Source of the DNA: Gammaproteobacteria bacterium
GTDB lineage: Bacteria > Pseudomonadota > Gammaproteobacteria > UBA1113
Assembly (NCBI GenBank): GCA_021773305.1
Contig: JAJFKH010000073.1
Coordinates: forward strand, 1,120 to 65,119
Length of the DNA: 64,000 nt
Direction: 5' to 3'
Position 1 is the stretch's first letter, and the number at the start of each line of letters is the position of its first letter. Below are positions 50,714 through 50,941 of the stretch, piece by piece. Below the pieces are notes generated by a model. It was not told where the DNA came from and did not search any database. It worked only from the letters and a program-made list of their open reading frames with translations. The translations under genes and the position numbers were made by a program.

Positions 50714-50941
50714 CTATTTCTTTTTATAGCCACCACTACCTTTAGGTGGTTTTCCAGGCCTTTGTTGTGTTGTTGAGGTGCTTGGAGAAGGACTTGGAGT
50801 TGCTGTTGGAGCTGGACTCGGGCTTGCCGTTGGAGCTGGCCCCGGAGCTGCTGTTGGAGAAGGGCTGGTCGCCGATGTCGGCGCAACACCGCCCGTGACC
50901 GATTTCAAGTCTTTTGGGTCTATTTTCTTTTTCTTAGCCAT
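50714..50941 (-). CDS. 75-aa precursor peptide with double-glycine (GG) leader and Pro/Thr/Ser/Ala-rich core
   Basis: MAKKKKIDPKDLKSVTGG|VAPTSATSPSPTAAPGPAPTASPSPAPTATPSPSPSTSTTQQRPGKPPKGSGGYKKK; leader fits the class II GG consensus (L-x2-V-x-GG); strong GAGGAG RBS 7 nt upstream; own promoter-like and terminator elements; adjacent to C39-ABC export genes. Confidence 0.7.
   Translation of the reverse strand: MAKKKKIDPKDLKSVTGGVAPTSATSPSPTAAPGPAPTASPSPAPTATPSPSPSTSTTQQRPGKPPKGSGGYKKK

What the first reader, a model, noticed from the sequence alone, without database searches (positions are those of the whole stretch)
50714..50941. Monocistronic GG-leader precursor with Pro/Thr/Ser/Ala-rich, Cys-free, acid-free core
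Leader MAKKKKIDPKDLKSVTGG has the hydrophobic -4/-7/-12 pattern and GG cleavage site used by C39 transporters. The 57-aa core (VAPTSATSPSPTAAPGPAPTASPSPAPTATPSPSPSTSTTQQRPGKPPKGSGGYKKK) is 28% Pro with abundant Ser/Thr (candidates for O-glycosylation, phosphorylation or dehydration). It has no Cys, Asp or Glu and ends in a basic GSGGYKKK tail. The gene has a strong RBS, an extended -10 element and its own terminator, as expected for a highly expressed peptide. It is unlike known lanthipeptide, sactipeptide, graspetide or class II bacteriocin cores.
Basis: partly seen in the sequence, partly recalled or inferred. Interest (0 to 1): 0.8.

Follow-up and report, generated by a model that had tools for sequence, protein, structure and literature searches.

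The report
Orphan double-glycine secreted peptide gene
A 75-codon gene beside a peptide-cleaving export pump in an uncultured Legionellales-like bacterium most likely encodes the pump's cargo, a 57-residue, floppy, positively charged Pro/Ala/Ser/Thr-rich peptide; the export system is a well-known kind, but the peptide has no relative in public data and no known function.

Summary
The ORF is real as described: 50714..50941 (-), 75 aa, leader MAKKKKIDPKDLKSVTGG with V-4/L-7/I-12. The core is 57 aa with no Cys, Asp or Glu, 74% Pro/Ala/Ser/Thr and net charge +6. Pro is 15/57 (26%), not 28%. ATG, GAGGAG Shine-Dalgarno, TGcTATAAT extended -10 and a downstream hairpin with U-tract are present.

The strongest new evidence is comparative. 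In two relatives gltX is followed directly by tRNA-Ala/tRNA-Glu. Here a 7.2-kb insertion (~44017..51215) separates them and holds exactly four genes: HlyD-like adaptor, C39-peptidase ABC, second ABC (the NHLP-type export trio, all above NCBIfam cut-offs) and this ORF. The C39 domain keeps its catalytic Cys/His/Asp.

Most likely this is an unmodified double-glycine peptide, cleaved and exported by the adjacent transporter, resembling a class II microcin in layout. No tailoring enzyme lies in the 64 kb, and there is no immunity gene.

The peptide is a strict orphan, so conservation and frame could not be tested in relatives. Around 80 related transporters no similar cargo was found. Function of the mature peptide is unknown. 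I rate it a new member of a known kind, of moderate interest.

The parts
44017..51215 (.). Lineage-specific 7.2-kb insertion between gltX and the tRNA-Ala/tRNA-Glu pair. It holds only the transporter trio and the peptide gene.
   Evidence: In L023 (GltX 80% id) the conserved TTGACA-17-TAGAAT promoter and tRNA-Ala start about 25-65 nt after gltX. In L026/L027 (GltX 64%) tRNA-Ala starts 49 nt after gltX. No flanking direct repeats were found. Boundaries are approximate.
44201..45382 (+). HlyD-like membrane fusion protein (393 aa), NHLP bacteriocin system secretion protein
   Evidence: TIGR03794, 278.9 bits against cut-off 156.2. It overlaps the next gene by 8 nt.
45375..47552 (+). ABC1: peptidase-C39/permease/ATPase subunit (725 aa), the predicted leader-cleaving exporter
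   Evidence: TIGR03796, 948 bits against cut-off 853. PF03412 Peptidase_C39, 3.5e-39. 3e-38 to LahT150 (6MPZ) with Cys22 (ECGAA), His95 (NHFVV) and Asp111 (NDP) invariant.
47549..50461 (+). ABC2: second permease/ATPase subunit (970 aa) with an uncharacterised 420-aa N-terminal region
   Evidence: TIGR03797, 824 bits against cut-off 709, residues 285-969. The N-terminal 420 aa has no Pfam or PDB hit. Nearest homologues are only 35% identical.
50505..50520 (+). Terminator-like hairpin ending the transporter operon
   Evidence: GCCAGTCTCTACTGGC followed by AATTTCTTCT
50640..50680 (-). Hairpin plus U-tract downstream of the peptide gene (candidate intrinsic terminator)
   Evidence: Read from the sequence. 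Fold -25.8 kcal/mol, z = -2.2. Not flagged by the scan because the loop is 11 nt.
50714..50941 (-). 75-aa prepeptide ORF (stop included). The leader is residues 1-18 (50941..50888) and the predicted mature core residues 19-75 (50887..50717).
   Evidence: The same protein is in the NCBI-derived protein set as a singleton.
50782..50863 (.). 24-nt tandem repeat, 3.4 copies, encoding the octapeptide units PSPTAAPG / PAPTASPS / PAPTATPS
50949..50954 (-). Shine-Dalgarno GAGGAG, 7 nt upstream of the ATG
   Evidence: Read from the sequence
50993..51001 (-). Extended -10 element TGcTATAAT, with no -35 match
   Evidence: Read from the sequence. Not reported by the scan, which requires a -35.
51228..51443 (+). 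Backbone: conserved tRNA promoter, tRNA-Ala(GGC) 51271-51346 and tRNA-Glu(UUC) 51368-51443. Marks the right edge of the insertion.

Best explanation
The ORF encodes a ribosomal prepeptide that is the dedicated cargo of the adjacent three-gene, NHLP-type type I secretion system.

Inferred mechanism:
1. The 18-residue double-glycine leader forms a short helix (D-11/P-10 cap, then K-D-L-K-S-V). This helix places I-12, L-7 and V-4 in the hydrophobic groove of the C39 domain of ABC1.
2. Cys22 cleaves after Gly18.
3. The 57-residue core (VAPTS...GYKKK, 5.42 kDa) is pumped out through ABC1/ABC2, HlyD and an outer-membrane channel encoded elsewhere.

The product is most likely unmodified. With 26% Pro and only one aliphatic and one aromatic residue it cannot fold. 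It would be an extended, hydrophilic chain with a polycationic C-terminal tail (RPGKPPKGSGGYKKK).

Its extracellular role is not established. My best guess is a non-lytic competition or surface-binding peptide, in the genetic layout of a class II microcin.

Shown here: gene anatomy, an intact transporter and peptidase, and co-insertion. Inferred: expression, cleavage, export and activity.
For: - Co-insertion. Two relatives have gltX directly followed by tRNA-Ala/tRNA-Glu. The window has a 7.2-kb insert there containing only HlyD, ABC1, ABC2 and this ORF.
- Intact transporter. All three transporter genes are full length and above the curated NCBIfam cut-offs for TIGR03794/03796/03797.
- Active peptidase. 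The C39 domain is 3e-38 to LahT150 and keeps the catalytic Cys/His/Asp.
- Leader fit. For LahT150 the last 13 leader residues suffice. [quoted passage not shown] The leader here has V-4, L-7 and I-12. It also matches the published double-glycine regex Motif 2 of PMC12219008 as I read it.
- Precedent for a short leader. It resembles the short leader MADIINEKDLENVSGG of a LysM mini-protein next to a related transporter in L068.
- Only candidate. It is the only strict-motif ORF in the window, and no NHLP/Nif11-like ORF lies in any intergenic region.
- Gene signals. ATG, SD, extended -10 and a terminator hairpin are present.
- Coding signal. Codon periodicity and the pos3 > pos1 >> pos2 divergence between repeat units fit this frame.
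- No tailoring genes in the 64 kb.
Against: - No homologue anywhere, so no evidence from conservation. The word-index search of 5.8e9 clusters, exhaustive phmmer on 1.84e9 representatives and a metagenome tblastn scan found only the peptide itself or PT-linkers of large proteins.
- The core is a GC-rich low-complexity repeat. The + strand ORF 50778..50957 shares the AT-rich wobble position and has a slightly better codon log-likelihood (+3.4 against -6.1).
- The leader is basic (net +4), with Pro at -10 and Lys at -15. Leaders next to 80 related transporters are acidic, and 23 of 24 are 58-97 aa long.
- The strict motif is expected about once per shuffled window.
- There is no adjacent immunity gene, which argues against a self-toxic bacteriocin.
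- There are no expression data.
Confidence: 0.6

Rival explanations
1. It is a RiPP precursor. The Ser/Thr-rich core is modified (O-glycosylated, phosphorylated, dehydrated or hydroxylated) by enzymes encoded elsewhere in the genome, before or after GG-dependent export.
For: - There are 19 Ser/Thr in 57 residues, in regular [AST]-P dipeptides.
- The transporter trio was defined through its association with modified NHLP/Nif11 peptides, whose tailoring genes are often unlinked (PMC2887384).
- An ATP-grasp (YheC/D-like) gene lies 600 nt away, beyond the tRNAs.
Against: - No tailoring enzyme is in the insertion or among the large ORFs of the 64-kb window.
- The 18-aa leader has no room for the extra recognition sequence that RiPP enzymes normally use, and it has no NHLP/Nif11 homology.
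- There is no Cys or acidic residue for the known cross-links.
- The ATP-grasp gene lies outside the insertion, across two conserved tRNA genes on the opposite strand.
Confidence: 0.13
2. It is not a gene on this strand. The ORF is a by-product of a GC-rich 24-nt repeat, and either nothing is translated or the + strand ORF 50778..50957 (59 aa, Gly/Ala/Val/Leu-rich) is the real product.
For: - Three long ORFs overlap here.
- The + ORF shares the wobble periodicity and has the better codon log-likelihood.
- The peptide is a singleton among about 15 billion proteins.
- The leader motif alone occurs about once per shuffled window.
Against: - The + ORF starts with GTG, has no Shine-Dalgarno, lies beyond the operon's terminator-like hairpin and has no leader.
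- The - ORF has ATG, GAGGAG at 7 nt, an extended -10 and a downstream hairpin with U-tract.
- Variability between repeat units follows the canonical coding order pos3 > pos1 > pos2 only in the - frame.
- The insertion would otherwise carry a cleaving exporter with no cargo at all.
Confidence: 0.17
3. It is a real small basic protein, but it is not exported by the neighbouring transporter. It would be, for example, a cytoplasmic or nucleic-acid-binding Lys-rich protein, and the GG motif would be coincidental.
For: - The whole prepeptide is very basic (about +10), with KKKK and KKK ends.
- The leader is atypically basic for this transporter clade.
Against: - It was co-inserted with the transporter as the only other gene.
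- It is convergent with the operon and within about 250 nt of its end.
- All three hydrophobic determinants and the GG are in register.
- The central 40 residues carry no charge at all, unlike histone-like proteins.
Confidence: 0.07

Closest known systems
Class II (IIa) microcins of Gram-negative bacteria (MccV, MccL, MccN and the expanded set of PMC12219008)
   Same: - Gram-negative producer.
- Small prepeptide with a 15-18-aa double-glycine signal.
- Mature size of 5-10 kDa (5.4 kDa here).
- No tailoring genes.
- Adjacent PCAT plus membrane fusion protein, with the outer-membrane channel encoded elsewhere.
   Different: - No sequence similarity to any microcin.
- No adjacent membrane immunity gene.
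- Two ABC subunits instead of one.
- The core is 74% Pro/Ala/Ser/Thr and cannot fold or form an amphipathic helix.
- Antibacterial activity is unknown.
NHLP / Nif11 leader peptides with the TIGR03794/03796/03797 export trio (Haft et al. 2010, PMC2887384); ProcA/LahT substrates
   Same: - The same three-gene transporter family, above the equivalog cut-offs.
- The same GG cleavage logic.
- The C39 domain is 49% identical to LahT150.
   Different: - The leader is 18 aa with no NHLP/Nif11 homology, against 58-97 aa in 23 of 24 neighbours of related transporters.
- The core is 57 aa against 12-37 aa.
- No Cys and no LanM, cyclodehydratase or radical-SAM partner.
Gram-positive double-glycine peptides (class II bacteriocins, ComC/CSP, pneumococcal GG peptides)
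   Same: Short GG leader with hydrophobic -4/-7/-12, cleaved and exported by a PCAT. The leader matches the regex derived from Gram-positive leaders.
   Different: - Gram-negative host with a tripartite system.
- No two-component sensor or immunity gene next to it.
- The core composition is unlike pediocin-like peptides or pheromones.
Proline-rich antimicrobial peptides of animals (apidaecin, drosocin, Bac7). This is a compositional analogue only, cited from my own knowledge.
   Same: Cationic, about 25% or more Pro, no Cys, unstructured. The tail RPGKPPKG is Pro/basic-rich.
   Different: - Those are Arg-Pro-rich over their whole length and 18-60 aa.
- Here 40 central residues are uncharged PAST repeats.
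- There is no homology and the comparison was not tested.

Membership tests
Double-glycine (GG) leader peptide / PCAT cargo | N-terminal leader ending in G-[GAS], with hydrophobic residues at -4, -7 and -12 | tested here: met
   V-4, L-7, I-12, G-2, G-1. These are the determinants defined for LahT150 in PMC6363468.
Double-glycine (GG) leader peptide / PCAT cargo | Neighbouring ABC transporter with a catalytically competent C39 peptidase domain | tested here: met
   PF03412 at 3.5e-39. Cys22, His95 and Asp111 are invariant with LahT150. The genes are convergent, with the operon ending 253 nt from the ORF's stop.
Double-glycine (GG) leader peptide / PCAT cargo | Leader actually cleaved and core exported | not testable with these tools
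   Needs biochemistry or secretome mass spectrometry.
Class II microcin | Gram-negative small protein of about 5-10 kDa with a 15-18-aa GG signal, PCAT and MFP | tested here: met
   5.42 kDa core, 18-aa leader, HlyD-like MFP and PCAT. Variant: an extra ABC2 subunit.
Class II microcin | Adjacent small membrane immunity protein | tested here: not met
   The insertion has no other credible ORF. The only candidates are a 34-aa TTG ORF 50594..50698 (-) that spans the terminator hairpin, and short ORFs with no signals.
Class II microcin | Antibacterial activity and receptor-mediated uptake | not testable with these tools
   Needs an inhibition assay.
Class II microcin | Sequence relationship to known microcins | tested here: not met
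   No full-length hit other than itself. No NCBIfam or Pfam family.
NHLP / Nif11-type RiPP precursor | Long leader homologous to the nitrile hydratase alpha subunit or Nif11 (TIGR03793/03795/03798) | tested here: not met
   0 NCBIfam families at E <= 0.01. The leader is only 18 aa.
NHLP / Nif11-type RiPP precursor | Associated TIGR03794/03796/03797 export trio | tested here: met
   All three are above the curated cut-offs.
Lanthipeptide / sactipeptide / ranthipeptide | Cys in the core and a cognate synthetase or radical-SAM enzyme | tested here: not met
   No Cys. No such enzyme in the window.
Graspetide | Asp/Glu side chains cross-linked to Ser/Thr/Lys by a dedicated ATP-grasp ligase in the same cluster | tested here: not met
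   No Asp or Glu in the core. The nearby ATP-grasp gene is YheC/D-type and lies outside the insertion, beyond two tRNA genes.
Glycocin | Glycosyltransferase gene in the cluster and a Cys-stabilised helical hairpin core | tested here: not met
   No glycosyltransferase in the window and no Cys.

The most novel reading that the evidence does not exclude
The mature peptide is not a bacteriocin. It would be a new kind of PCAT cargo: a secreted, intrinsically disordered, mucin- or arabinogalactan-protein-like PAST-repeat chain with a polycationic anchor. An uncultured Legionellales-like (probably protist-associated) bacterium would use it to coat its own or a host surface, possibly decorated on its [AST]-P dipeptides by unlinked or host glycosyl- or hydroxyl-transferases. 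That would extend double-glycine export from toxins and pheromones to structural or host-mimicking polymers.
Probability: 0.12. Interest if true: 0.6.

Novelty: new member of a known kind. Interest (0 to 1): 0.33.

Why it matters
If confirmed, this is a clean four-gene, self-contained cargo-plus-exporter module in the Legionellales, a group not known for GG peptides. It would show two things. First, the NHLP-type two-ABC trio can serve a short-leader, apparently unmodified cargo. Second, double-glycine export can carry a long, proline-rich, unfoldable cationic peptide.

The practical value is modest. It gives a compact module for heterologous secretion tests and a candidate non-lytic cationic peptide to assay. 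It does not open a long-standing question, and GG-peptide cores are known to be hypervariable, so an orphan core is not in itself surprising.

Tried and rejected
1. The genome-contig scan with ABC2 as a single protein returned only unrelated ABC ATPase domains, and the scan was wasted.
2. Homologues of ABC2 are at most 35% identical and sit on short, GC-rich contigs with no small GG ORF nearby. They give no help on conservation.
3. Exact look-ups of the peptide, ABC2 and HlyD in the gene-position index found nothing. Cluster look-ups gave no names or organism.
4. The metagenome scan with the peptide found nothing.
5. Rfam on 50300..51600 found only the two tRNAs, so there is no support for a known non-coding RNA.
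6. AF2 of the ABC2 N-terminal 420 aa without an alignment gave pLDDT 33, which is unusable. ABC2 268-434 against the ABC1 C39 domain by BLASTP shows no similarity, so I cannot say whether ABC2 carries a degenerate C39-like domain.
7. Its GC by position is 0.92/0.29/0.58, its codon log-likelihood is -11, and it has a GTG start with no SD.
8. I looked for a link between the peptide and the YheC/D ATP-grasp gene. The literature search gave nothing relevant, and the gene lies outside the insertion.
9. Literature searches for Pro-rich GG peptides or Legionella PCAT cargo gave nothing specific.
10. GC3 as proof of the frame is rejected as insufficient, because the + ORF shares the wobble position.

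Full report
**Observation.** The window carries, on the minus strand at 50714..50941, an ATG-initiated ORF of 75 codons: MAKKKKIDPKDLKSVTGG|VAPTSATSPSPTAAPGPAPTASPSPAPTATPSPSPSTSTTQQRPGKPPKGSGGYKKK.
- Counting back from the GG, the leader has V-4, L-7, D-8 and I-12. The -15 position is Lys.
- The 57-residue core has no Cys, Asp or Glu.
- The core is 74% Pro+Ala+Ser+Thr, with net charge +6, 5.42 kDa and pI 10.7.

**Expression signals.**
- GAGGAG lies 7 nt upstream of the ATG (50954..50949).
- A perfect extended -10, TGcTATAAT, lies at 51001..50993, with no -35.
- Thirty-four nt after the stop there is a GGCCGAC/GTCGGTC hairpin followed by a U-rich tract. The 84-nt fold is -25.8 kcal/mol, z = -2.2.
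- The automatic consensus scan did not flag either element, so these rest on direct reading.

**Is it coding, and in which frame?** The core is about 60% GC in a roughly 38% GC genome.
- The GC is at codon positions 1 and 2 (0.59 and 0.92), while position 3 is AT-rich (0.29), as in the host genes.
- The core is built from a 24-nt (8-codon) tandem repeat, 3.4 copies at 75% identity.
- Differences between repeat units fall mainly on position 3 (25-31), then position 1 (16-19), and rarely on position 2 (3-6).
The plus-strand ORF 50778..50957 (GTG, 59 aa, Gly/Ala/Val/Leu-rich) uses the same nucleotide as its wobble position. It scores slightly better on raw codon log-likelihood (+3.4 against -6.1).
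- I still favour the minus frame, for four reasons:
  - It alone has ATG, SD, a promoter and a terminator.
  - Only in that frame is the order of variability the canonical pos3 > pos1 > pos2.
  - The plus ORF lies beyond the operon's terminator-like hairpin with no ribosome-binding site.
  - Only the minus frame gives a product that makes sense of the neighbouring genes.
- Rfam finds nothing here except the two tRNAs.

**Neighbourhood.** Immediately upstream on the plus strand, and convergent with the ORF, are three overlapping genes.
- A HlyD-like adaptor (44201..45382).
- An ABC transporter with an N-terminal C39 peptidase (45375..47552).
- A second ABC transporter (47549..50461).
- They score above the curated equivalog cut-offs of TIGR03794, TIGR03796 and TIGR03797. 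This is the three-gene NHLP bacteriocin export set that Haft et al. found by phylogenetic profiling with NHLP/Nif11 precursors (PMC2887384).
- The peptidase domain matches PF03412 at 3.5e-39 and the crystallised LahT150 protease at 3e-38. The catalytic Cys (ECGAA), His (NHFVV) and Asp (NDP) are conserved.
- For LahT150 the last 13 leader residues suffice. [quoted passage not shown]
- The leader here offers V, L and I at exactly these positions. It also matches a published double-glycine regex, Motif 2 of PMC12219008, as I read its notation.

**Co-insertion, the key new result.** GltX places the organism among uncultured Legionellales-like gammaproteobacteria. Its best hits are unnamed metagenome proteins, and the named ones are labelled 'Legionellales bacterium' or 'Gammaproteobacteria bacterium'.
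- In the closest relative available (L023, GltX 80% identical), the gltX stop is followed within about 25 nt by a TTGACA-17-TAGAAT promoter and tRNA-Ala.
- In a more distant one (L026/L027, 64%), tRNA-Ala(GGC) and tRNA-Glu(UUC) start 49 nt after gltX.
- In the window the same promoter and tRNA pair are at 51228..51443, 7.2 kb away from gltX.
- The intervening segment (~44017..51215) holds the three transporter genes, this ORF and nothing else credible.
- The peptide gene therefore arrived together with the transporter. Without it the inserted cleaving exporter would have no cargo, because no NHLP/Nif11-like or other GG ORF lies in any intergenic region of the window.
- An independent short assembly of the same organism (L025) reproduces the left junction.
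- I found no flanking direct repeats, so the insertion mechanism is unknown.

**How much is chance?** My strict leader regex hits only this ORF among 1635 ORF-starts in the window, but shuffled windows give 1.0 +/- 1.2 hits. The motif alone proves nothing. The weight comes from its location, roughly a 1-2% chance of falling within 500 nt of the operon ends. It also comes from the co-insertion, the translation and transcription signals, and the coding periodicity.

**Relatives.** There are none.
- The word-indexed search of 5.8 billion clusters returns only the protein itself, a singleton from an NCBI record on a 65.9-kb contig.
- Exhaustive phmmer against 1.84 billion representatives returns itself plus Pro/Thr linkers of large, unrelated proteins.
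- A tblastn-confirmed metagenome scan finds nothing.
- The transporter is itself isolated, with nearest ABC2 homologues at 35% identity.

**What do related transporters carry?** A metagenome scan with a C39-domain alignment gave 80 loci (689 kb) with domains 44-53% identical.
- They contain 24 intergenic strict-motif ORFs.
- Twenty-three have leaders of 58-97 aa ending in an acidic EL(S/T)D(E/D)(E/D)LxxV(A/V)GG consensus, and cores of 12-37 aa. These are typical NHLP/Nif11-type precursors.
- One (L068) has a 16-aa leader, MADIINEKDLENVSGG, fused to a LysM domain. It shows that this transporter clade also serves short-leader cargo that is not obviously a RiPP.
- The maximum PAST fraction among the 24 cores is 0.53 and the maximum Pro is 0.17.
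- Even a loose motif finds no PAST-rich (>= 0.6) candidate.
- The peptide here is thus atypical for its transporter family in four ways: leader length, leader charge (+4), core length and core composition.

**Mechanism.** Export and processing by ABC1/ABC2/HlyD is the best-supported reading (confidence about 0.6).
- Modification is unlikely. Pfam annotation of the large ORFs of the window shows housekeeping genes, pilus regulators and several orphan proteins. It shows no LanM or LanB, cyclodehydratase, radical-SAM enzyme, kinase or glycosyltransferase.
- An 18-aa leader also leaves no room for a separate enzyme-recognition element.
- The YheC/D-type ATP-grasp gene at 51536..52687 is tempting. 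However, it lies outside the insertion, across two conserved plus-strand tRNA genes, and the core has no carboxylate side chain for graspetide chemistry.
- With a Pro every 2-4 residues and only one Val and one Tyr, the mature peptide must be an extended, hydrated chain. It cannot be an amphipathic pore-former.
- The cationic tail suggests binding to anionic surfaces or uptake like proline-rich antimicrobial peptides. This is inference only.
- The lack of an immunity gene argues against a self-toxic bacteriocin, but not against one whose target the producer lacks.

**Classification and novelty.** It works like, and is laid out like, a class II microcin or GG peptide: a small Gram-negative prepeptide with a GG signal, a PCAT and an MFP.
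- It fails the microcin criteria of an adjacent immunity gene and sequence relatedness.
- It is not an NHLP/Nif11 precursor, although it uses their transporter trio.
- It cannot be a lanthipeptide, sactipeptide, graspetide or glycocin.
- Cores of GG peptides are notoriously diverse, so I file it as a new member of a known kind, not as a new system. Interest is moderate (0.33).
- The most novel reading not excluded is a secreted mucin-like or host-mimicking PAST polymer as a new class of PCAT cargo (probability about 0.12).

Noticed in passing
window 51536-52687 (-) and 52745-54304 (-): Just beyond the tRNA pair lie a YheC/D-like ATP-grasp gene (PF14398 at 3.7e-32, with a weak tubulin-tyrosine-ligase hit) and a 519-aa ORF with no Pfam or NCBIfam hit. 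Neither has a counterpart after the tRNAs in L026, so this side of the tRNA pair may be a second variable region. No link to the peptide could be shown.
   Followed up: partly
window 50778-50957 (+): An antisense-shifted ORF (GTG, 59 aa, Gly/Ala/Val/Leu-rich) shares the wobble position with the peptide gene and scores slightly better on codon log-likelihood. It has no SD or leader. This is a reminder that periodicity cannot assign the strand for PAST-rich genes.
   Followed up: yes
window 47549-48808 (+), ABC2 residues 1-420: The second ABC subunit has a 420-aa N-terminal region with no Pfam or PDB sequence match. One distant homologue (P0011) carries a cNMP-binding domain. AF2 without an alignment failed (pLDDT 33). 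Whether it is a regulatory domain or a dead C39-like domain is open.
   Followed up: partly
window 29145-29438 (-) and 29462-29764 (-): Two tandem ORFs of about 100 aa have lipoprotein-like signal peptides (…LVGC) and extremely Tyr-rich mature parts (YYNPIVYSPYSYFSYGYHPRYYNYRGYYRPYGY…), in an otherwise empty 800-nt intergenic gap.
   Followed up: no
window 14004-19664 (-), 31391-33736 (+), 11880-13394 (+): Large ORFs of 1886, 781 and 504 aa have no Pfam family at E <= 1e-5. They may be effector-like orphans of the kind common in Legionellales.
   Followed up: no
L068 426-668 (+): Next to a related C39 transporter in a metagenome contig lies an 81-aa protein with a 16-aa GG leader (MADIINEKDLENVSGG) fused to a LysM domain (PF01476 at 1.2e-17). 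It looks like a peptidoglycan-binding mini-protein exported by a PCAT.
   Followed up: partly
window 6919-7905 (+) and 62737-63278 (+): There is a YhgA-like transposase (PF04754) and, near the right end of the window, ORFs that look like broken transposase fragments. The latter is my reading of the translations and was not checked against a family library.
   Followed up: no
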